Origin: the human T2T-CHM13v2.0 reference genome, Homo sapiens
DNA: 64,000 nucleotides
Strand: one strand, 5' to 3'
Assembly: GCF_009914755.1 (NCBI RefSeq)
Contig: NC_060941.1
Shown piece after piece: positions 13,375-30,733 of this stretch (position 1 is the first letter of the stretch; each line of letters opens with the position of its first letter). Both the position numbers and the translations under genes were made by a program. Below the pieces are notes generated by a model that did not search any database, was not told the origin of the DNA, and was given only the letters and a program-made list of their open reading frames with translations.

Positions 13375-14450
13375 AATTTCTTAATCTACTTATTGATGGG
13401 CATTTGGGCTGGTTACATATTTTTGCAATTGTGAATTGTGCTGCTATAAACATGCATGTGCAAGCACCTTTTTCATATAATGACTTCTTTTCCTCTGGGT
13501 AGATACCCAGTAATGGAATTGCTGGATTAAATGGTAGTTCTACTTTTGTTCTTTAAGAAATCTGCACACTGTTTACCATAGTGGCTGTACTAGTTTACAT
13601 TCCCACCAGCAGTGTAAAAGTGTTCCCTTTTCACCACATGCCCACCAATATTTATTATTTTTTGATGTTTTGATTATGACCATTCTTGCAGGAGTAAGGT
13701 GGCATGGCTTTTTTTTTTTTTTTTTTTGATAGAGTTTGTTGCCAGGTTGGAGTGCAACCTCTGCCCCCTGAGTTCAAGTGATTCTCCTGTCTCAGCCTCC
13801 CAAGTAGCTGGGACTAGAGGTGCCTGCCACCACACTCGACTAATTTTTGTGTTTTTAGTAGAGATAGGTTTTCACCATGTTGGCCAAGATGGTCGTCGAT
13901 CTCTTGACCTCGGGATCCACCCATCTCAGGCTCCCAAACTGCTGGGGTTTCAGGCGTGAGCTGCGAGCCACCACGCCCGGCCCAGCACCAGCATTCTGGT
14001 TTCGATTAACGTATCTCTGATCATTAGTGATGTTGAGCATTTTTTCATATATTTGTTGGCCATTTTTTATATCTTCTTTTGAGAATTGTCTATTCAAGTC
14101 CTTAGACCATTATTTGAATGGATTGGGGGTTTTTTTTCTGCTAATTTGTCTGAGTTCCTTGTAGATTCTGGATATTAGTCCTTTGTCAGATGTATAGATT
14201 GTGAAGATATTCTCCCATTCTGTGGGTTGTCTGTTTACTCTGCTAATTGTTTCTCTGGCTGTGCAGAAACTTTTTGGTTTAATTAAGTCTCACCTGTTTA
14301 TCTTCATTTTGTTGTTGTCGCACTTGCTTTAGGGTTCTTGATCATGAAGTCTTTGCCTAAGCCAGTGTCTAGAAGGGTTTTTCCAATGTTATCTTCTATA
14401 ATTTTTATGGTTTCAGGTCTCAGGTTTAAGTTGATCTTTGTTTAAGGTAA
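12980..14450 (-). mobile_element. L1PB-type 3' portion, interrupted by an Alu and a (TA)n at 13341-13371
   Basis: TTTCCATAGGTTTTTGGGGAACAGGTGGCGTTTG is a typical reversed L1PB 3' end; ORF 13855..14097 begins MNRQFSKEDI. Confidence 0.82.
13709..13982 (-). mobile_element. Alu (S-type), internally deleted
   Basis: Poly-T 13709-13727; GGAGTGCAACCTCTG shows loss of the segment between two TGCA microhomologies. Confidence 0.9.
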
Positions 14451-14687
14451 GAAGTGAGATACCCATTGTTTCTCTTTTAATACATTTAAAACAAGCAAAC
14501 CTTCTACCCAGTTTAGATTTATTATTCTTCATTGATTGTTTCATTCTCTTGGAGAACATTCTGGCAGTAAAGTAATAGATACATTGCATCCATCATTGTG
14601 TGTCAAAAGGCCATCAGGTCGATGGCTCTTTTTGAACTATGTTGTTTCAGAAAACCATAGCTGAGTATTATAGGCAGAAGTTTGACA

Positions 14688-14988
14688 TTTTCTTTGTTTT
14701 TTTTTTTAATTTTATTTTATTATTATTATACTTTAAGTTTTAGGGTACATGTGCACAATGTGCAGGGTAGTTACATATGTATACATGTGCCATGCTGATG
14801 TGCAGCCCCCATTAACTGGTCATTTAGCATTAGGTATATCTCCTAATGCTATCCCTCCCCCCTCCCCCCACCACACAACAGTCCCCAGAGTGTGATGTTC
14901 CCCTTCCTGTGTCCATGTGTTCTCATTGTTCAATTCCCACCTATGAGTGAGAATATGTGGTGTTTGGTTTTTTTGTTCTTGCGATAGT
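14688..14988 (-). mobile_element. 5'-truncated L1PA3-like 3' end
   Basis: T-rich tail, then TACTTTAAGTTTTAGGGTACATGTGCAC...TTTAGCATTAGGTATATCTCCTAATG...GAGAATATG. Confidence 0.9.
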
Positions 14989-15592
14989 CAATTGACTTTT
15001 ACGTGTTTCTGAAGTGAGGCTTGTGCTTCAATTGCAGAAGAAATAGCTTTTATAATATTGGAGAAACAAAATAGAAATTAATATAAAATTTGGATAACAA
15101 TAGCTTCAATGAAAGTGAGAATTGTATTTTAGTGGTATTATAATATTTTAAATCCATTGAAATAGAATCTGAAATAGAAATTTATGGAAAAAGGTACAGA
15201 AATAGAATAATGTCTACCAAATCAAGGTAGTAATGAATAAAATTTACACATAAAAACTCAGAACTGGAACATGTTTAAGGAAATCAAATATTATTAAAGA
15301 AGAAATATATAACTGTAATTTGCAATTTATGATATACATATATGTTATGTGTATATAAACACATGACTGCTTATTATACTTGCTTAATTTATCTCTTGCT
15401 CCTGGCTCCAGAAAAAATGAAAAAACTCTTTTGTCCATGAGTATATGAATAGCATTTATCATAAAGCTGTGGCAAAGTAGGCATTTAATAGTATTTGATA
15501 CTGAATATGTTAAAATACTAAAAATAAAAATACTTTTACCATTTTATACTTTTTAATGTTTAAAATGCTGTTTTGCAGGGGGATTTGTGGAG

Positions 15593-15800
15593 TTTTGTTT
15601 TTTTTTTTTTTAGTTAAAACAAATTTACTCCTTTATTTTCGCTAACTTCTAAAAGAAATTTAGCACTTCCTTCAGTTATGAATGTAAACAAAAGACAGTG
15701 GCAGTATCTCTGATTTTGTCATCAACAGGTATCGCAGATATTTTCATGTCATATTACAGATTTGTAGACATCTTGAAATACTGTTTAATCGTTATCACTA
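15593..15800 (-). other. Putative L1 3'-transduced segment with its own polyadenylation signal and poly(A) tail
   Basis: Second poly-T at 15593-15611; TTTATT (AATAAA on minus) at 15632-15637; TSD-like GTGGAG(A)TTTT at 15587 and 21816. Confidence 0.75.
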
Positions 15801-16008
15801 TTTTTTTTTATTAAAGTTTTAGGGTACATGTGCACATTGTGCAGGTTAGTTACATATGTATACATGTGCCATGCTGGTGCGCTGCACCCACCAACTCGTC
15901 ATCTAGCATTAGGTATATCTCCCAATGCTATCCCTCCCCCCTCTCCCCACCCCACAACAGTCCCCAGAGTGTGATATTCCCCTTCCTGTGTCCATGTGAT
16001 TTCATTGT

Positions 16009-19833
<3,825 letters not shown>

Positions 19834-19896
19834 TATGATGTTAGCTGGTTATTTTGCTCGTTAGTTGATGCAGTTTCTTCCTAGTCTCGATGGTCT

Positions 19897-20913
19897 TTAC
19901 ATTTTGGCATGATTTTGCAGTGACTGGTACCGGTTGTTCCTTTCCATGTTTAGTGCTTCCTTCAGGAGCTCTTTTAGGGCAGGCCTGGTGGTGACAAAAT
20001 CTCTCAGCATTTGCTTATCTGTAAAGTATTTTATTTCTCCTTCACTTATGAAGCTTAGTTTGGCTGGATATGAAATTCTGGGTTGAAAATTCTTTTCTTT
20101 AAGAATGTTGAATATTGGCCCCCACTCTCTTCTGGCGTGTAGGGTTTCTGCTGAGAGATCCGCTATTAGTCTGATGGGCTTCCCTTTGAGGGTAACCTGA
20201 CCTTTCTCTCTGGCTGCCCTTAACATTTTTTCCTTCATTTCAACTTTGGTGAATCTGACAATTATGTGTCTTGGAGTTGCTCTTCTTGAGGAGTATCTTT
20301 GTGGCGTTCTCTGTATTTCCTGAATCTGAACGTTGGCCTGCCTTGCTAGATTGGGGAAGTTCTCCTGGATAATATCCTGCAGAGTGTTTTCCAACTTGGT
20401 TTCATTCTCCCCATCGCTTTCAGGTACCCCAGTCAGATGTAGATTTGGTCTTTTCACATAGTCCCATATTTCTTGGAGGCTTTGCTCATTTCTTTTTATT
20501 CTTTCTTCTCTAAACTTCCCTTCTTGCTTTGTTTCATTCATTTCATCTTCCATCGCTGATACCCTTTCTTCCAATTGATCACGTCAGCTCCTGAGGCTTC
20601 TGCATTCTTCACGTACTTCTGGAGCCTTGGTTTTCAGCTCCATCAGCATCTTTAAGCACTTCTCTGTATTGATTATTCTAGTTATACAGTCTTCTAAATT
20701 TTTTTCAAAGTTTTCAACTTCTTTGCCTTTGGTTTGAATGTCCTCCTGTAGCTCAGAGTAATTTGATCGTCTGAAGCCTTCTTCTCTCAGCTCGTCAAAG
20801 TCATTCTCTGTCCAGCTTTGTTCCGTTGCTGGTGAGGAACTGCGTTCCTTTGGAGGAGGAGAGGCACTTTGCTTTTTAGAGTTTCCAGTTTTTCTGTTCT
20901 GTTTTTTCCCCAT
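19897..20913 (-). pseudogene. L1 ORF1 with a single in-frame premature stop
   Basis: MGKKQNRKTGNSK...CRSLRS* (TGA at 20584-20586, a CGA>TGA change); the same frame continues as EERVSAMEDE...LQNHAKM. Confidence 0.95.
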
Positions 20914-21364
20914 CTTTGTGGTTTTATCTACTTTTGGTCTTTGATGATGGTGATGTACAGATGGGTTTTTGGTGTGGATGTCCTTTCTGTTTGTTAGTTT
21001 TCTTTCTAACAGACAGGACCCTCAGCTACATGTCTGTTGGAATACCCTGCCGTGTGAGGTGTCAGTGTGCCCCTGCTGGGGGGTGCCTCCCAGTTAGGCT
21101 GCTCGGGGGTCAGGGGTCAGGGACCCACTTGAGGAGGCAGTCTGCCCGTTCTCAGATCTCCAGCTGCATGCTGGGAGAACCACTGCTCTCTTCAAAGCTG
21201 TCAGACAGGGACATTTAAGTCTGCAGAGGTTACTGCTGTCTTTTTGTTTGTGCCCTGCTCCCAGAGGTGGAGCCTACAGAGGCAGGCAGGCCTCCTTGAG
21301 CTGTGGTGGGCTCCACCCAGTTGGAGTTTCCGGGCTGCTTTGTTTACCTAAGCAAGCCTGGGCA

Positions 21365-21673
21365 ATGGTGGGCGCCCCTCCCCCAGCCTCGCTGCCGCCT
21401 TGCAGTTTGATCTCAGACTGCTGTGCTAGCAATCAGCGAGACTCCGTGGGCGTAGGACCCTCTGAGCCAGGTGCGGGATGTAATCTCCTGGTGCGCCGTT
21501 TTTCAAGCCCGTCGGAAAAGCGCAGTATTCGGGTGGGAGTGACCCGATTTTCCAGGTGCCGTCGGTCACCCCTTTCTTTGACTCGGAAAGGGAACTCCCT
21601 GACCCCTTGCACTTCCCAAGTGAGGCAATGCCTCGCCCTGCTTCAGCTGGCACACGGTGCGCACACCCACTGA
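21365..21673 (+). CDS. L1 antisense ORF0 (open, 102 aa)
   Basis: GCAATGG start in strong Kozak context; MVGAPPPASLPPCSLISDCCASNQRDSVGVGPSEPG... matches primate L1 ORF0. Confidence 0.6.
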   Translation: MVGAPPPASLPPCSLISDCCASNQRDSVGVGPSEPGAGCNLLVRRFSSPSEKRSIRVGVTRFSRCRRSPLSLTRKGNSLTPCTSQVRQCLALLQLAHGAHTH

Positions 21674-23259
21674 CCTGCGCCCGCTGTCTGGCACTTCCTA
21701 GTGAGATGAACCGGGTACCTCAGATGGAAATGGAGAAATCACCGTCTTCTGCGTCGCTCACGCTGGGAGCTGTAGACCGGAGCTTTTCCTATTCGGCCAT
21801 CTTGGCTCCTCCCCCGTGGAGATTTTTTTAAATAAAGATTTGAAATAACTTTCTCTTTTAGTAATAATAAATTATATTTTAAATAATATGCTCAAGTTTT
21901 AAAAGTGCTGTAAGTCCTTCTCTGTGTACCTAAGACATTTCTGTGTCACTACACTTAAAAGGATATGAGGCTGAGCCTTCAGCTTTATATTTTTCAACCA
22001 TGATTTTATTCCTCATACATGCATATTTACATTTCTATGTAACAATATATTTCAGATATAATTTTTTCATGCAAAAAATCACATGAGATTGTTTTAAAAT
22101 TATGATTTCATTGTTTGATGAGTATACAAAATCATGAAAAGAATACTTGAAAAGAGAAAATTTTCATGTCCCCAAGATTCTTGCTATTTAGAGTTCAGGT
22201 GAGTTTATGATGAACTTTCTTTCAGGCCATTCAAATAAAAATGTAGCACAAATAGCTTATTATTTAATAATTATTAATACCATATAGGTTCATATGTTTT
22301 CATATGCACAACTAGATAGATGACAGATAGATAAATAGATAATTATAGACCAGTATCGATATTTCCAATACAAACACTCTAATATGTGACAGTTCTCAAT
22401 TCTCTACCCTTCTGTATAATAAATTCCTTGAAGGATTAGAGTAAGTATTCTACACGTACTCCTTTTCAATCCACTTGCATAGTAAGAGTGTGTACAAATG
22501 ATGACTAATAATGATGAGGCCATTTTGATTCAGTTTCATCAGAGGTGTAAAATGGTAGTCATGAAAAACATAAGACATCTTTAATTTTTCCTTTTTGAGA
22601 TTTTGTGGATTTGTTTTTGTCCTGACATTAGTACAAAGAAAATCTGTTTCTCTCCTCGGACAATTAAAATACTGTTGTTATGTAATAAATCAACAAGAAC
22701 ACAAATTATGAAAATTATGAAAAACGTTGGTAATTTTGCAGAAATATCCTCAATACATATTTCAATTACTTAACCTTTCTAAGATGTTACTTTTTTTACT
22801 CCAATTGTATTACTTATTTTTCTTACAGCATTTTGTATATCTTATGTATCTGTTTAAAATTCTTATCATAATTATATTAAATAAATATCTCTAACATAAA
22901 TTATTCAAAACAACATTTTACCTTGATAGGTATTATTAATGATGTTCTCAATTGTCTTAACAGGTCAAGGAAACAAAACATTGACCAAAAAGAATATTAA
23001 AAAAATCAATAAATTTTATTTTGAATAGGTGAAACCCAGTTATACCACTGACTGACAAAATATGAGATAAAGTTCCTTTAGTATCTTTACTCAAGTACTG
23101 CAACTTTATTTGTCAGATATTTTTTCTCATGTAAAGGCTTAAGTTGTGTAATACCAGAGACTGAGACTCAAACTTGAGTCTGACTCCACAGCCATAGTAG
23201 GCTTTACTGCATCATGCTGCCTCACCATTGACAATAGGAAGGCCTCTGGTCTGGGGTTA

Positions 23260-23863
23260 TGTTACCAGAAAGGGGTTCCAATCCAGACCCCAAGAGAGGG
23301 TTCTTGATCCTTGTACAAGAATTTATTTATTAAGAAAGTAAAGGAATAAAGAATTGCTACTCCATAGGCAAGCAGTGGCGTGGGCTGCTTAACTGAGTAT
23401 ACTTATAGTTATTTCTTGATCATGTGCTAATCGAGGGGTAGATTATTCAAGAGTGTTCCAGGAAAGGGGTGGGGTGGGCAATTCCTGGAATTGAGGTTCC
23501 TCCCTGCTGTTTTAGACCATATAGGGCAACTTCCAAATGTTGCCATGGCATTTGTAAGCTCTCATGGCTCTGGTGGGAGTGTCTTTCAGCATGCTAATGC
23601 ATTATAATTAGCTAATAATGAGTACTGACGATGACCAGAGGTGACTTTCTTCACCATCTTGGTTTGGGCATGTTTTGGCAGCTTCTTTACCATAATCTGT
23701 TTTATCAGCAGGATTTTTGTGACTTGTACTTTGAGCTAACATCCTATCTCATCCTGTGACTAAGAATGTCTAATCCCCTGGATATGCAGCCCAACAGGTC
23801 TCAGCCTTATTTTTCCCAGCCCCTCTTCATAATGGAGTATCTTTGGTTCAAATGCCTCTGATA
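23260..23863 (-). mobile_element. MER41 (MER41B-like) solo LTR
   Basis: Left TGTTACCAGAAAGGGG...CAGACCCCAAGAGAGGGTTCTTG and right CAGCCTTATTT...TTGGTTCAAATGCCTCTGATA match the reverse-complemented MER41 termini. Confidence 0.88.
23456..23490. promoter_or_regulatory. Tandem GAS (STAT1) motifs in MER41
   Basis: TTCCAGGAA 23456-23464 and TTCCTGGAA 23482-23490. Confidence 0.65.
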
Positions 23864-23999
23864 AAACCAATAAGTTTTCATGATGTATAAATCTGAGGCT
23901 GTGGGTCTTTATATATTGAATATAACTTTGTGAGATAGTCCTAAGTAGTCTCTTTGGAGTACACATGCATCAACATAATTATAATTCCTTACGGACCTA

Positions 24000-24862
24000 T
24001 CTGACCACCCAATGGGTTCATCTTGCCCAGATATAGCTGATTTATCAAGAGAGGGGAGTTGCAATAGAGAGAGTTTAATACATGTAGAGCTGGCTAAATG
24101 GGAGACTAAAGTTTTATTACTACTCAAATCAGCCTCCCACAAAATGTGGAGGCTAGGGCTTTTCAAGGGCAGTTTGGCAGGCAGAGGGCTAGGAAAATTG
24201 CTGATTGGTTGATAAGGTGTACAAAATGGTCCTTCTGGACTGAGTGTGCTTCTGAGTTGGAGCCACAGAGTAGTCCCTGGCCTAGGTGGAGTCATCAGGT
24301 TTTCAGAAATGCAAAAGTCTGTAAAAACACCTTAAAAAGCCAATCTTAGGTTCTAAAATAGTGATGTTAATTACAGAAATAATTAGAGAAGTTGCAGATC
24401 TTGTAACCTCTAGAACAATGACTGGTAATTGTTTAAGCCTAAGTTGTGTAATACTAAGCAGAGGGACTGAGACTCAAACCTGGGTCTGACTTCACAGCCA
24501 TAGTAGGTTCTACTGCATCATGCTGCCTCTCCATTGACAGTAGGAAGACATATGGTCTGAGGTTATATAACCAGAGAGAGGTCGCAATCCAGACCCCAAG
24601 ACAGGGGTCTTAGCAATATTCAGGCCCCTCTCAGCCTCCTAACCTGGTGGACTTTCATTAGTTTTACAAAGGCAGTTTAGTTTCTGGGAAGGGCTATTAT
24701 CATGTAAACTATAAACTAAATTTCTCCCAAAGTTAGCTTGGCCCATGCCCAGGAATGACTAAGAGCAATTTAGAGGTTAAAGGCAAGATGGAGTAGGTTA
24801 GGTCAGATCTCTTTCACTGTCATAATTTTCTCCCTGTTACCATTTTTGCAAAGGCAGTTTCA
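24000..24862 (-). mobile_element. LTR8A-like solo LTR carrying a ~170-bp foreign insert at 24441-24611
   Basis: ACCACCCAATGGGTTCATCTTGCCC...TTATTACTACTCAAATCAGCCTCCC and terminal TTTTGCAAAGGCAGTTTCA. Confidence 0.82.
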
Positions 24863-25704
24863 CTACTGTTCGGTTAAATGAATTTGATCACTAAATAATT
24901 TGTGCAATCTTCTAAAACTGGAAAAAAATACATTTTGATTTAGTACCTTTTTACATCAACACTATGTTTATTCAAGTTAAAGAAACATAGTTATTTTAGA
25001 AGGGATATAAATGAGACCAACCATAGTTTCTAAGGGAAAACATTGAGGTTAAGGAAAGCAGTAATTTAAGAACTATAAGAAAATACAGAAAGTTCTACAT
25101 CTAATGGAATTTATAATTGTGTGATCTATCCACATTAATATATCTAAAGTCTGGTATTCCTGACTCCATTTAAATTAGATTAAATAATTTAAGTCCAACA
25201 TCGTAGATTCCCCTCAAGTACATTTGCTGCTGTTTTGATGTTAATTATCCACATCACTCAGATAATTACCACCTAACTTGTTTATAGCACAAGGTATGCT
25301 GTAACTTTTTATCTCAAGGAAGCTTAAGTATTTCTTTTATCATGGGCCAGAGCAGTTTTCAATGTCACTTAATTGTGTCCTAGAAAATTACTAGAATAAT
25401 AAGCACATTCACAGGGTTAAATATTAACAGATGAGGCAATTACTTGAAGGGAAAACTGCAAATCATTTTAACAATTCTTTTCTTGCACTTTTTTAAAGCA
25501 GCATTTGCCAAATGCGATCCTCAGATCACTTAGCCTGAGAAGATAACGTCTGTTAAAAATTTTTCTATGGTGAAAATAATTTTGACAGCTCAGGAAAATG
25601 ATATGAAAATTTGTAATAGTAATCAAAGGGTTAGAGAAGTTCTGCCATCAAGAAAAATGCTAAAAACTTGTTTTTCTAATATTGTTTTATAACCTTCCTA
25701 ATAA

Positions 25705-25921
25705 CAGTTTGCAGAGTTTTTCTATAAAGGGCAAGAGGGTAAATAGTTTGGGCTTTGTAGGCTGTATGGGTCTCTCTGGCATCTACTCAACTCTTCCTTT
25801 ATAGTGCAAAAGCAGACTTAGATATAACAGAAACAAATACGTGGCTGGGTTCCAATACAACTTTATCAAATCAGCCCACTGGGCTGGATTTGGCCTGTGT
25901 GCTGGAATTTTCCAACCCCCG
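25705..25921 (+). mobile_element. MER58A-like hAT MITE
   Basis: TTTTCTATAAAGGGC...TAAATAGTTTGGGCTTTGTAGGC...GTTCCAATACAACTTTAT...GGATTTGGCC. Confidence 0.75.
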
Positions 25922-27398
25922 ACAATATTATGCAGAGGTAGTTTTTAAAAATGTCTGATTTGGAAATCTCTGTTTTAGATTTTATACATAAATATCAAAC
26001 TCTCTAAAATTGTATCTACAAGATAGCCCTTCCTCTTTGCTTACTCTCATTCTTGAGAAATTTGTAGCAGTAGAGGAGGGCATGAAGAAGGGAATCACTT
26101 TTTGCAGAGAATAAACTCTTTCAGCCTTGGTACCCATAGCTATCCCACCACTATCACCTTTGTGCTATATACTGTATGACTAAGGAAAATGAGTCACATA
26201 CTCTTCCTGCCCTCAAGGAGCTAGCTGTATGGTCTACTGGGAGTGAGGGTGATAATTTTGCAAATGACAAGGAATGTGTCTACTCCACATAATAGTACAA
26301 TAAAATGTGTGATATTAATGCCACATGAGCAGTAACAATTTCCCCAAGGGGATTAAAAGGAAGAACATAATTTTGGTTACAAGTACCAGGCAAGGCTTTA
26401 AATGAGAGATAATGCAGGCAAGGCTTTAAATAAGAGATATTGCTGTAGATAAGCTTGTAAAGAGTATTCCTAGTCATCAACAGGCAGCACTGCAGAGGAG
26501 AAAATTGTGAGAAAGTATTGCTGCTAGATGGAAAAGCATAAATAAGGAAAAGGAGGTGGCAATGGTAGCAAATAGTCACTTAGCAGGAGCATATAGTGTT
26601 AGTCTGAAAAGTCAGTCTGCATCAACAAGATACTTATAAGGTACCATATACTTGATCCAACAGAAATGCAAAGGTGCTGAAGAACGTTAGCATGATAGGG
26701 ACCCCTTTTATTCTTTGATTGAGGGGTGCCCATTTGCACTTAGGTAAGAATGGTGCATATTTAAAATGCCTGATGATGCTGTTAATATTGTCTGTCCTAA
26801 GTAGTGACATAGCACATGTGTTAAGTAGTTTCAAGAGTTTTGGGGACCAAAAAAGCATTATTTGGATATTTCAGATGTGAATGAATATAAACAACAGTAA
26901 AACCTACAACACCTCCCTTCCCTCTGCCTCCACCTCCCACCAAGACAAATCCAGAGGATGGCAGTTGCTAGTGTGTTTTCAGTAGTGCAAACATGTCAGG
27001 GCTGCCTCCCGGATTGCTTTCAACTTTCCTTTAGGTGGACAGATTACTGCTGGCTCTCTAGTCATTGTGCTCAGATTTAAAGCAAGAAAAAAGTAAAATC
27101 TGCACGAAAGCTTGCTTCTTTACTGTGAGAAAGCCAAACTTTCTCAGAAGCACAAATTTTTACATTGATATTTTATGACCCAGAACTGGATGACAGGGCC
27201 ACTTCTCACTGCTAGTGAAACAGAGAAAAAATTATTTGGCTTTCTCTTTCATGTGGGAATTGAAAGGGTAGAAGAAGATTTAGAGTAGCTTTAAAGATGC
27301 CTAAAGGTGTCCAAATAAATGTTTAAGTATTTTATGAGAAAGTTCAGAAGCACCTAAGAGTTTTAGGCAAACTACATCATATATTTATTTTTCACCTT

Positions 27399-27724
27399 AA
27401 TAAATATAACCTGATAATTTTATTGAGAGAGGAAAAAAACTGTCTTTTGCAAAAGGATAAACAAAGATGTAATATATATGTTTTATATATAATATCTTTA
27501 TATATATTTCTTTATATATACATACACATAATATATAATGTCTATATATAATATAGATATATCTTAAATATATCTTTATAAAGATATGTAATTATATATC
27601 TTTATATATCTCTTTAAGACGTATATATATATTTACACATTTACAAAACACAGTTTTTCTTTTCTCTCTCAATAAATTTACCAGGTTATATTTATTTTGT
27701 CACATCCTAGCCTAACAAATCTTG

Positions 27725-27764
<40 letters not shown>

Positions 27765-27977
27765 CATAGATCTTTATATAGTGTATATATAGGTAGATCT
27801 AGATATATATCTTTATAATATATATAATTTGTTTGTATGCATATATATGTGTGTGTATATATATATACACACACATACATATATATGATAATCTTACCTC
27901 CTAAAGGAAATTTGAAGAGATATGTATAACTATATATAGATACAACTGGATTTATTAGTCTAGGATGTGACAAAATA
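27399..27977. repeat. Two adjacent inverted repeats enclosing TA-rich and (TG)n microsatellites
   Basis: Arms 27399-27449/27644-27696 and 27693-27721/27949-27977; (TG)n at ~27728-27762. Confidence 0.88.
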
Positions 27978-28039
27978 TTCAATTTGAAACTGTATTAGCA
28001 GCTTTTTAGATTTCATTTATGAGTGGTGCATTATAATAT

Positions 28040-28260
28040 GAAGGAGTTGTAAAACTTTTAAGGATTTTGCAGTCCGAAGATATGAAATATAATCCCAAGT
28101 CCACCATTCACTAGCTATTTGTCTGTACTAAAGTCATTTAGCCACTAAGGACATCAGCCTCCCTTTCATCATTTTTAAAATGAGGATAATAATAACTGCC
28201 CTTCACACTGTGTAGGTTTGTTGCAAGGCCCAAATGAGGTGATATTTTTAAAATTGCTTC
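28040..28260 (+). mobile_element. MIR
   Basis: AATCCCAAGTCCACCATTCACTAGCT...TAAAATGAGGATAATAATA...AAATGAGGTGATAT. Confidence 0.65.
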
Positions 28261-28949
28261 ATCAACAACAAAACACTCTCGCACTTCTCTCTCTGTCTTG
28301 ATCTCTCTTTCTCTCTCTCTTCTCCCTCCCTCTCTCCCTCTCTTTCTGACACACATATCCCACACACATTTCCACATAAAGCTCCCCGCTCAATCCCTTG
28401 AGATTATAAATGCCATCACAGAAATATATCAAGTGCCTCTGACAGCTTCTGGCTTCTGTTGCTCACTTTGTTTTTTTCTTTCTTTTTTTTTCTTTTTTTA
28501 CTTAGAACAAATTGAATCATGCTATTAGGTACCACTTCTTTAATGATTTCATCTATTTGTCACTTCAAAAGGTTTTATTTTTGACCCCAGGCCCTCTGAA
28601 AGCCTGTCAGATATAATCAGCTGTTATTCAATTTGTCTGAATATTGAGGTTCATACCACAACTAGAGAAACTGGTAGTGGAGGCACTTCTGTCTTGGAAT
28701 ATAATCAATGGCTGAAATAACTTTGTCATTAAGAATGAAGATTTCCCCTCACAAGGTAACAGAGGATTTGGAAATCTTTAAAATGTGGAATTTCAATAAT
28801 ATTATTCCCCATCACTCCTACCTACCACTTTACTTCTGTCTCACATCTGTTTACACCTAACACATTAGTGGAATCCCAAAGCATTAGTATCCACATACCA
28901 GATCAGAAATCCAAACCCAGCACTCATTACCACTAGCTGCATATAACAT

Positions 28950-29075
28950 TTTTATAATTATTAAGTTGCCACTCTAGAAGAGAAGAAATGTAATTTGTAT
29001 ACATACAAATGTGTGTGTGTGTGTATAAGACATGCATTTCTTCACTTCTAGAGTGGCAACTTAATACTTATAAAA
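28950..29075. repeat. 41-bp inverted repeat around a (TG)n-containing spacer
   Basis: 28950-28990 matches the reverse complement of 29035-29075 at 39/41 positions. Confidence 0.9.
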
Positions 29076-29855
29076 GATATATGTATATATATATATATAT
29101 ACGTACACACATATTTGTATGATTTTGAATGTAAATTGTTTTGGAGCTATAGAGCGTAATAAATTTACCAATAGTTTGCATAATATTTATGTATTTATGT
29201 TAATATATTTTTAATGATTTTATATATATAGATAGAATGACTGCCTTCACATATGTGTTAAGATACTTTATTGTAAAAGTAATAAAAACATAACTAAAAT
29301 TGCCACACAGAATATAGCATATTCATTGGCTTATGAATCTGAAGGTCTAGAATTCCTCTCAGGCTTCAGGCAAGGACTGACCCAAGAGTTTAGCGGTATT
29401 ACTATCTGCCAGCTTTTACTTCATTGATCATGACTTCATTTTAAGACAGTCTTCCCTCATAATCTCAGTCTATCCTATTCCACTTTCAAATTTATATGCA
29501 TAACACTTTCAACAGTCACCAACCCCTCTCTGTTTAGCCCACCATTGTAACATACCCATTTCTGAACAAATAGATGATTGTGTGTATTGCTTATTGACTT
29601 AGCTTAGGTTACAAACTCCCCCTCTGGAATAAGGTCATTATCATCTTACCCATAATCACAGTGATCTCTAGAGATTGCAACTACTGAAATCAGAAAGATG
29701 CAGAGTGGGAATAAGTAAAACCTATTCTAATAATAAAAGAGTAAATTTTACATGTGCACATAGGTATATTTATTGTCTGGATTCTAATTCCTGATGCAAA
29801 GAATAAAGACAGATTCTCCCATGAGTGAATAAAATAAATTTTTTTTCATGAACTA

Positions 29856-29933
29856 TTAGGTTAAGACACATAAAACTGCCACATGGAGGTGCCAATTGGT
29901 CAAAACGCAGCAACTTCATACTGTTCAACCTAA
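29856..29933. mobile_element. MADE2-like mariner MITE
   Basis: About 80 bp with termini TTAGGTT...AACCTAA and partial internal self-complementarity. Confidence 0.5.
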
Positions 29934-30733
29934 AAGAAGGCCGCCGTAGGGAAAACTGGCCACAGTTGCTTTACCTATACTAAAGACCACGACCATCAGT
30001 ACATGTAATATCCTCCATTGTTTCCCTAGCTTATTTAATATATCTGTGTGGCAATGATCTCATTCGTTTTCCTAAAATTATATGTTTAATTTTTTCAAAA
30101 GTTGCTATAGCAAGATAGAAACCTCCTAAAGCTGAATATCCCTTGAATGCGTCATTGGTATATTTTAGCCTCAAGCTTCACATGAAGGATCATTATCCAT
30201 ACATATATTTTGCAGATGTAAATTATTTGTCTGTGCAGTGGATTGGAGTGTAGGTCCTTTGTATGTATGAAATAGACCCCTTTATTTCTGGGAAAACATT
30301 GTTCTCTTCGTGGGTTTCCTGTGATCACGTGTTGTTGCTATCCACGTGTAGGTCTTCTCTGAACTCCTGTAGGATGATTCGGCCCCAGCTCTGGTTTTGT
30401 TGACTGCTGAATCATGTAAATGGAGCCTTAGTGAAAAATATCTCTATTGAAATGCCTTGTCAGAAATCAATAATAGCTGATCTTTACAGCAAAATACATA
30501 CCAAAAGCTGGTTTTACAAAACATTATGTAAGGATGATTGCTTCTTTATTTTGTATAGACATACTATGTGCACTGAATTGTCAGCTCACTCATCAGGGAC
30601 TTGATGAGTACTTCTGGCATCTTTGGGATAGTTTCATGTAGACAAACCCTTTAAGGGAAAAGCCCCAATAATTATGTTTCTGTTTCTATCAAAGGAAAAC
30701 AAGATAGCCTATACTACAAAATAGGTATAGGTT

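What the first reader, a model, noticed from the sequence alone, without database searches (positions are those of the whole stretch)
15587..21832. Full-length L1 carrying a ~190-bp 3' transduction
Seen: there is no TSD next to the L1's own short tail (15801-15809). The sequence following the L1 5' end, GTGGAGATTTTTTT|AAA (21816 onward, a canonical TTTT/AA endonuclease site), reappears as GTGGAGTTTTGTTT at 15587, directly before a second poly-T (15593-15611). An AATAAA on the minus strand (15632-15637) sits about 20 nt upstream of that tail. Established: read-through of the weak L1 polyA signal mobilises downstream flank. Inference: 15612-15800 is a barcode for the source L1 elsewhere in the genome.
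Basis: partly seen in the sequence, partly recalled or inferred. Interest (0 to 1): 0.7.

Follow-up and report, generated by a model that had tools for sequence, protein, structure and literature searches.

The report
L1 with 189-bp 3' transduction
A full-length but broken L1 retrotransposon on chromosome 17 carried along 189 bases copied from chromosome 15 when it inserted, a well-known by-product of L1 copying, and the parent L1 is no longer at the chromosome 15 site in this genome.

Summary

- **The insert.** A 6,006-bp minus-strand L1 (15810-21815) has normal family ends. It is followed by its own A9, then 189 non-L1 bases (15612-15800), then a second tail (15593-15611). That tail lies 20 nt past an AATAAA.
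- **The flanks.** GTGGAG plus a T-run brackets the whole composite, not the L1 alone.
- **Empty site.** A paralog on chr10 joins both flanks with one GTGGAG and has neither the L1 nor the 189 bp.
- **Source of the 189 bp.** It has exactly one near-identical copy, with 2 differences in 189, at C15:45029484-45029672. There it is part of a longer old repeat, has no A-tail, and stops matching at a TTTT/GA site.
- **No parent L1.** This assembly has no L1 beside the chr15 copy. It is the unscarred empty site of a source L1 that is absent here, presumably never fixed.

Best reading: a textbook L1 3' transduction (0.8). The main rival is a trans chimera of a chr15 transcript with L1 RNA (0.1). The "L1PA2" label is untested. 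Nearest copies are 96-97% identical, and ORF1 and ORF2 are broken. This is an ordinary member of a known kind, of low interest.

The parts
15587..15599 (.). Left copy of the target-site duplication: GTGGAG plus a T-run that merges into the tail
   Evidence: The chr10 paralog has a single GTGGAG+T5 at the joined flanks.
15593..15611 (-). Terminal poly(A) of the composite insert (TTTTG then T14 on the + strand). It is not templated at the chr15 donor or at the chr10 empty site. Its first bases overlap the target-site duplication.
15612..15800 (-). Transduced 189-bp segment copied from C15:45029484-45029672
   Evidence: 99%, full length; 2 ungapped differences, at 15620 and 15740
15632..15637 (-). 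AATAAA used for the read-through transcript, 20 nt before the tail
   Evidence: The same hexamer is in chr15 at L002 1521-1526.
15784..15789 (-). ATTAAA hexamer inside the transduced segment, 11 nt past the L1's A9. It was evidently not used.
   Evidence: L002 1673
15801..15809 (-). The L1's own short A-tract (A9). Four of these A are also present in chr15. The L1's own AATAAA spans 15807-15812.
15810..21815 (-). Full-length L1 body, 6,006 bp, with both family ends
   Evidence: 31 of 39 non-self hits start at the same 5' base, give or take a few; 6 of 6 relatives share the 3' end CTTTAAT+A; Pfam domains
19897..20913 (-). ORF1 frame of 338 codons, with one in-frame stop at codon 110
   Evidence: (Tnp_22_trimer, Transposase_22, Tnp_22_dsRBD)
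16009..19833 (-). ORF2 region, broken into at least five ORF pieces in different frames
   Evidence: (Exo_endo_phos in two pieces, RVT_1)
21816..21829 (.). Right copy of the target-site duplication (GTGGAGATTTTTTT), followed by AAATAAAG, which makes a TTTT/AA site

Best explanation
This is one L1 retrotransposition event with a 3' transduction.

A source L1 sat in minus orientation on chr15. Its tail abutted the bases that now read AAAATAGTGATAACG on the minus strand, at about C15:45029672. Transcription ran past the L1's own AATAAA and past an ATTAAA 11 nt further on. The transcript was cleaved and polyadenylated 20 nt after the next AATAAA, 189 nt downstream.

The read-through RNA (L1 + A-tract + 189 nt + poly(A)) was inserted by target-primed reverse transcription at a T-run/AA site in the chr17 copy of a chr10/chr17 duplicated segment. 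This duplicated about 11-14 bp of target (GTGGAG plus T-run).

The source L1 is absent from this assembly. The most likely reason is that it was never fixed in the population. The offspring has since decayed: there is one stop in ORF1, and ORF2 is in pieces.

Shown here: the anatomy, the empty paralog, the chr15 origin and direction of copying, and the absence of an L1 at the donor site. Inferred: that an L1 once sat at the donor site and that the RNA was one read-through transcript.
For: 1. The composite is bracketed by GTGGAG plus a T-run. No repeat abuts the L1's own A9.

2. On chr10 the left flank (C10:56015881-56016225, 97%) and the right flank (C10:56015500-56015886, 93%) are contiguous. 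They share one GTGGAG, with no L1 and no 189 bp between them.

3. The 189 bp has one near-identical copy, on chr15, with 187 of 189 bases identical. The other 38 scored hits are 69-83% identical.

4. chr15 is the donor.
- It has no A-tail where the window has T19.
- The old repeat that holds the segment continues past the junction in 3 of 6 family members aligned.

5. The tail starts 20 nt after AATAAA. chr15 has a T-rich stretch just past the cleavage point.

6. Homology with chr15 ends exactly at TTTT/GA on the + strand, a pyrimidine-run/purine nick site of the kind L1 endonuclease uses. Such TTTT/R sites make up 21 of 3189 positions on that strand of L002.

7. The L1 has both family ends and the ORF1, endonuclease and reverse-transcriptase domains.

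8. The non-L1 part lies 3' of the L1. That is the order expected for transduction and the reverse of the described L1 chimeras (passages).
Against: - No source L1 is at the chr15 site in this assembly, nor any in the right orientation within 10 kb on either side. The defining cis link between L1 and flank is therefore inferred, not seen.
- The internal A-tract is very short. It has 9 A, of which 4 are templated by chr15 and 3 belong to the L1's AATAAA. A young active source would be expected to have a longer tail, so shrinkage must be assumed.
- No second offspring carries this barcode.
- The empty site is a paralog, not an ortholog.
- The two target-site duplication copies differ in the T-run (12 of 14 positions).
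Confidence: 0.8

Rival explanations
1. A trans chimera. Reverse transcription began on the poly(A) of an independent chr15 transcript, from a host gene or a repeat, that ended at the same AATAAA site. After 189 nt, at the AAAA run, the enzyme switched to the start of the poly(A) of an L1 RNA and copied the whole L1. Alternatively, the two RNAs were ligated before insertion. No L1 ever sat at chr15.
For: - The chr15 site has no L1 and no scar.
- The junction lies in an A-run that offers microhomology with an L1 tail.
- The internal A-tract is short.
- Template switching and RNA ligation by the L1 machinery are described for other chimeras (passages).
Against: - The described chimeras keep the L1 3' end at the 3' end of the insert and place the other RNA 5' of it (passages). 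Here the order is reversed.
- Copying a full 6-kb L1 after a switch would be unusual.
- No other retrocopy of that chr15 3' end exists in the genome, so an abundant transcript is not indicated.
- The junction is also a good endonuclease site, as the cis model needs.
- From recalled literature (Goodier 2000 and Pickeral 2000, seen only as reference-list entries; the abstract of PMC13009371 says ~25%), 3' transduction is common among L1 insertions.
Confidence: 0.1
2. Two separate insertions. First a 189-bp tailed retrocopy of a chr15 transcript inserted into chr17. Later an L1 landed exactly at its 5' junction.
For: The chr10 paralog lacking both parts does not by itself show that they arrived together.
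Against: - The L1 alone has no target-site duplication. The only shared 8-mer lies 20 and 24 nt from the junctions.
- The second insertion would have had to hit the junction to the base, between the retrocopy and its own duplicated target.
Confidence: 0.03
3. DNA-level duplication or gene conversion moved 189 bp between chr15 and chr17, without an RNA step.
For: The region is a pericentromeric duplicated segment.
Against: - The copy ends in a non-templated A-tail 20 nt after AATAAA.
- It starts at the L1 tail.
- It sits inside a target-site duplication that the chr10 paralog shows as single-copy.
Confidence: 0.01

Closest known systems
L1 3' transduction (read-through of the weak L1 poly(A) signal). 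Moran 1999, Goodier 2000, Pickeral 2000 and Szak 2003 are recalled and were seen only as reference-list entries. Population maps: PMC9311842, passages read.
   Same: - Order of parts: L1 3' end, short A-tract, unique flank, second poly(A) after a downstream AATAAA.
- The target-site duplication surrounds the whole composite.
- The flank maps to one other locus on another chromosome.
- Its length of 189 bp falls within the 7-997 nt range reported in PMC9311842 (abstract passage).
   Different: - The progenitor L1 is not at the mapped locus in this assembly.
- The offspring is an old, fixed-looking, decayed copy, not a polymorphic L1HS.
- The barcode is itself a piece of an old interspersed repeat.
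L1 chimeric insertions such as U6/L1, Alu/L1 and mRNA/L1 "5' transductions" (bioRxiv 10.1101/2025.02.02.635956, passages read)
   Same: One insertion event joins L1 and non-L1 RNA sequence in the same orientation, with a target-site duplication, an endonuclease motif and a poly(A).
   Different: In those chimeras the non-L1 part lies 5' of the L1 and the L1 3' end carries the tail. Here the non-L1 part lies 3' of a complete L1.
Orphan 3' transduction (Solyom 2012; recalled, seen only as a reference-list entry)
   Same: The source L1 is not in the reference genome, and the transduced flank identifies the source locus.
   Different: As I recall it, an orphan transduction lacks the L1 part at the new site. 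Here the complete L1 is present, and it is the parent that is missing.

Membership tests
LINE-1 (primate L1PA lineage), full-length copy | Family 5' terminus | tested here: met
   The query included 20 nt of flank. 31 of 39 non-self hits begin at query 20-26, where the L1 start is 21. The other 8 begin at 2-16 with lower identity.
LINE-1 (primate L1PA lineage), full-length copy | ORF1 and ORF2 domains (RNA-binding ORF1; endonuclease and reverse transcriptase) | tested here: met
   Tnp_22_trimer, Transposase_22, Tnp_22_dsRBD, Exo_endo_phos (one piece above and one just below the curated cut-off) and RVT_1. 2 of the 6 pieces had no Pfam match. The frames are broken.
LINE-1 (primate L1PA lineage), full-length copy | Family 3' end with AATAAA and an A-tract | tested here: met
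   6 of 6 close relatives end in CTTTAAT followed by an A-rich tail, as here.
   No Dfam or RepeatMasker library is on hand. The best of 40 scored copies are 96-97% identical over the 3' 591 bp and 93-96% over the 5' 300 bp. The 3' UTR shows the GAG state at the site where, by my recall, L1HS-Ta has ACA. If so, the copy is older than L1HS.
L1 3' transduction | Non-L1 sequence directly 3' of a complete L1 3' end, ending in a second poly(A) 10-30 nt after a poly(A) signal | tested here: met
L1 3' transduction | The target-site duplication brackets L1 plus extra sequence, and the empty site lacks both | tested here: met
   The empty site is a chr10 paralog. The orthologous site in apes could not be examined.
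L1 3' transduction | The extra sequence maps to a single other locus, which has no tail there | tested here: met
   C15:45029484-45029672, 187 of 189 identical, no A-run in chr15
L1 3' transduction | Corroborating rather than defining: a progenitor L1 directly 5' of the mapped locus, in the same orientation | tested here: not met
   There is no L1 at the junction in this assembly. Within C15:45020000-45039999 the only L1 match is a 128-bp fragment on the opposite strand with its own target-site duplication. Progenitors absent from the reference are reported for polymorphic events (PMC9311842 passage: one prolific non-reference progenitor).
Template-switch or ligation L1 chimera (U6/L1 type) | The L1 3' segment forms the 3' end of the insert, with the partner RNA 5' of it | tested here: not met
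   the partner lies 3' of a full-length L1. Family definition taken from passages.

The most novel reading that the evidence does not exclude
No L1 ever sat at the chr15 site. The insert would then be a reverse-order chimera. L1 reverse transcriptase primed on the poly(A) of an unrelated chr15 transcript, copied 189 nt, then jumped onto the start of an L1 RNA tail and copied all 6 kb. That class of L1 chimera has the partner RNA at the 3' end and is not among those described in the passages I read. It would mimic 3' transductions and inflate counts of "parentless" ones.
Probability: 0.1. Interest if true: 0.5.

Novelty: new member of a known kind. Interest (0 to 1): 0.2.

Why it matters
It matters little beyond book-keeping.

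- It is a clean, fully bracketed example of an L1 3' transduction.
- It pins an extinct or unfixed source L1 to one base on chr15.
- It dates the insertion to after the chr10/chr17 pericentromeric duplication.

Such barcodes let lineages of old source elements be traced. The chr15 site is also a specific place to look for a filled allele in ape and pangenome assemblies. If none exists anywhere, the case would bear on whether some "parentless" transductions are really trans chimeras.

Tried and rejected
- The repeat finder on 15000-22400 showed only the 20 largest of at least 60 families. None was the flank repeat and none was informative.
- Szak 2003 and Pickeral 2000 are not held. They are cited from recall and from a reference list only.
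- bioRxiv 10.1101/083295 (passages) gave nothing on progenitors.
- I looked for a progenitor list in the supplements of PMC9311842. Those supplements may bear on that point.
- A nearby L1 on chr15 was considered as the source and rejected. It is a 128-bp 3' fragment on the opposite strand, 2.3 kb away. It has its own target-site duplication and a different 3'-end variant.
- The shared 8-mer TTGAAATA was rejected as a target-site duplication for the L1 alone, because it abuts neither junction.
- A splice-acceptor reading of the chr15 junction (...AAAATAG|TG) was rejected, because the window keeps the ATAG bases.
- The old repeat that holds the 189 bp could not be named, since no repeat library is on hand.
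- The fetch from genomes returned 10,000 of the 20,000 bases asked for per region. The rest was fetched.

Full report
**What is there**

On the minus strand an L1 runs from 21815, its 5' end, to 15810, where it reads ...CCCTAAAACTTTAAT. Nine A follow (15809-15801).

The element is full length at 6,006 bp.
- I searched the genome with its first 300 nt plus 20 nt of flank. 31 of 39 non-self hits begin at the same L1 base, give or take a few (query 20-26). The other 8 begin at 2-16.
- 6 of 6 close relatives share the 3' end CTTTAAT followed by an A-rich tail.
- Pfam finds the three ORF1 domains, the endonuclease in two pieces, and RVT_1. 2 of the 6 ORF pieces had no match.

The copy is dead.
- The ORF1 frame of 338 codons has one in-frame stop at codon 110.
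- The ORF2 region is split into at least five ORFs in different frames.

**The extra segment**

After the A9 come 189 non-L1 bases (15800-15612 on the minus strand). A second tail follows, which on the + strand reads TTTTG then T14 (15593-15611). A minus-strand AATAAA (15632-15637) ends 20 nt before that tail. An ATTAAA lies 11 nt after the A9 (15784-15789) and was evidently passed over.

**Target-site duplication and empty site**

GTGGAG occurs directly before the second tail (15587-15592) and directly after the L1 5' end (21816-21821). With the T-runs, the two copies agree at 12 of 14 positions.

Nothing comparable abuts the L1's own A9. The longest shared word is 8 nt and lies 20 and 24 nt from the junctions. 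Only two T-runs of 8 or more lie within about 1 kb left of the L1's 3' end (14801-15810), so there was one candidate place for a second tail.

The decisive result is a paralog on chr10.
- The left flank, 15250-15592, matches C10:56015881-56016225 (minus strand, 97%).
- The right flank, 21816-22200, matches C10:56015500-56015886 (minus strand, 93%).
- The two matches are contiguous and overlap by exactly 6 bp.
- chr10 reads ...GCAGGGGGATTTGTGGAGTTTTTATAAAAATAAAGATTTG..., with one GTGGAG, no L1 and no 189 bp.

The paralogy covers window 14450-30696 at about 92.5-96% identity. The duplication is therefore much older than the insert.

The target was a T-run followed by A, the kind of site L1 endonuclease nicks. 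The duplicated target is 6 bp for certain and about 11-14 bp if the T-run is counted. The two copies and chr10 differ in that T/A run.

**Origin of the 189 bp**

I searched the whole genome with the segment. 40 of 71 candidates were scored.
- One hit was the segment itself.
- One was a full-length near-identical copy at C15:45029484-45029672.
- The other 38 were 69-83% identical.

The segment is thus a piece of an old interspersed repeat with a single recent relative. Window and chr15 differ at 2 of 189 positions, 15620 and 15740. That is about 1%, which is roughly human-chimpanzee-level divergence. With only two events the interval is very wide.

chr15 is the donor, for three reasons.
- It has no A-run where the window has its tail. 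chr15 reads ...gtgaacttgtgt|agttaaaa.
- It carries the same AATAAA, with a T-rich stretch just past the cleavage point.
- The old repeat continues beyond the other junction in 3 of 6 family members aligned.

**The source site is empty**

On chr15 the match ends at ...cgttatcactatttt|gaaactgtg, with 4 T where the window has 9. No L1 follows.

In C15:45020000-45039999 the only L1 match is a 128-bp 3' fragment on the opposite strand, 2.3 kb away. It has its own target-site duplication and a different 3'-end variant. It is unrelated.

The break point is a TTTT/GA site. Such TTTT/R sites make up 21 of 3189 positions on that strand of L002. A source L1 inserted there in minus orientation would have its tail abutting AAAATAGTG..., exactly as the offspring shows.

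Because the old repeat is unbroken across the point, the chr15 allele looks like a never-filled site and not a deletion scar.

**Mechanism**

The best reading (0.8) is a single retrotransposition of a read-through transcript from a source L1 at that chr15 site.
- Shown: the anatomy, the empty paralog, the donor locus and the direction of copying.
- Inferred: that an L1 once stood at the donor site, and that it was lost because it never reached fixation.

The short internal A-tract needs shrinkage or a short-tailed source. It has 9 A, of which 4 are templated by chr15 and 3 are part of the L1's AATAAA.

The main rival (0.1) is a trans chimera, made by template switch or RNA ligation between a chr15 transcript and L1 RNA. 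The empty donor site and the A-run junction fit it. But the described chimeras keep the L1 3' end at the insert's 3' end, with the partner RNA 5' of it (passages of bioRxiv 10.1101/2025.02.02.635956). That is the reverse of the order here. In addition, no other retrocopy of that chr15 3' end exists in the genome.

Two separate insertions (0.03) and DNA-level copying (0.01) fit poorly. The L1 alone has no duplication, and the tail is not templated.

**Age and subfamily**

The best of 40 scored relatives are 96-97% identical over the 3' 591 bp (5587 candidates, 40 scored). Over the 5' 300 bp they are 93-96% identical.

The 3' UTR has GAG at the place where, by my recall, L1HS-Ta has ACA. If so, the copy is older than L1HS. 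"L1PA2" could not be tested, because no repeat library is on hand.

**Comparison with what is known**

This is the textbook L1 3' transduction.
- Moran 1999, Goodier 2000, Pickeral 2000 and Szak 2003 are recalled. They were seen only as reference-list entries, and the papers themselves are not held.
- Population surveys report 268 high-confidence L1 transductions of 7-997 nt, and both reference and non-reference progenitors (PMC9311842, passages).
- An abstract states that about 25% of L1 insertions carry a transduction (PMC13009371, listing).

I did not find this particular locus in print, but I ran no search aimed at it. The supplementary tables that might list chr15 progenitors could not be opened.

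**Verdict**

This is an ordinary member of a known kind. The one notable point is that the parent is missing from the assembly.

Noticed in passing
window 14450-30696 (excluding 15593-21815): This stretch is a reverse-orientation paralog of C10:56.006-56.017 Mb at about 92.5-96% identity. It is a two-copy duplicated segment in the chr17 pericentromeric region. The left edge of the paralogy is near 14450, and the right edge was not reached. Only chr10 matched either flank.
   Followed up: partly
L013 1603-2398 (C10:56007602-56008397), equivalent to window ~29200-29210: The chr10 paralog carries its own ~795-bp L1 3' fragment that the window lacks. The two window alignments overlap by about 10 bp there, which may be its target-site duplication.
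   Followed up: no
L018 (C7:94826300-94826440, minus strand): In one of the L1's close relatives, the A/T-rich tail is followed by about 16 non-A bases and then a pure A19 run. This may be another, very short, 3' transduction.
   Followed up: no
L022 1924-2131 (C15:45031923-45032130): A 128-bp, 5'-truncated L1 3' end lies on the + strand with a clear 13-bp target-site duplication (gaaatactatttg). Its 3' end is a different variant (CTTAAAGTATAAT...) from the window L1's CTTTAAT. It is 2.3 kb from the donor site and unrelated to it.
   Followed up: yes
L002 ~1505-1864 (C15:45029488-45029847) and window 15612-15800: The transduced segment is the terminal part of an old interspersed repeat (38 further hits at 69-83%). 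That repeat ends at about the poly(A) cleavage point, so the AATAAA used by the read-through transcript was supplied by the old repeat. The family is not named.
   Followed up: partly
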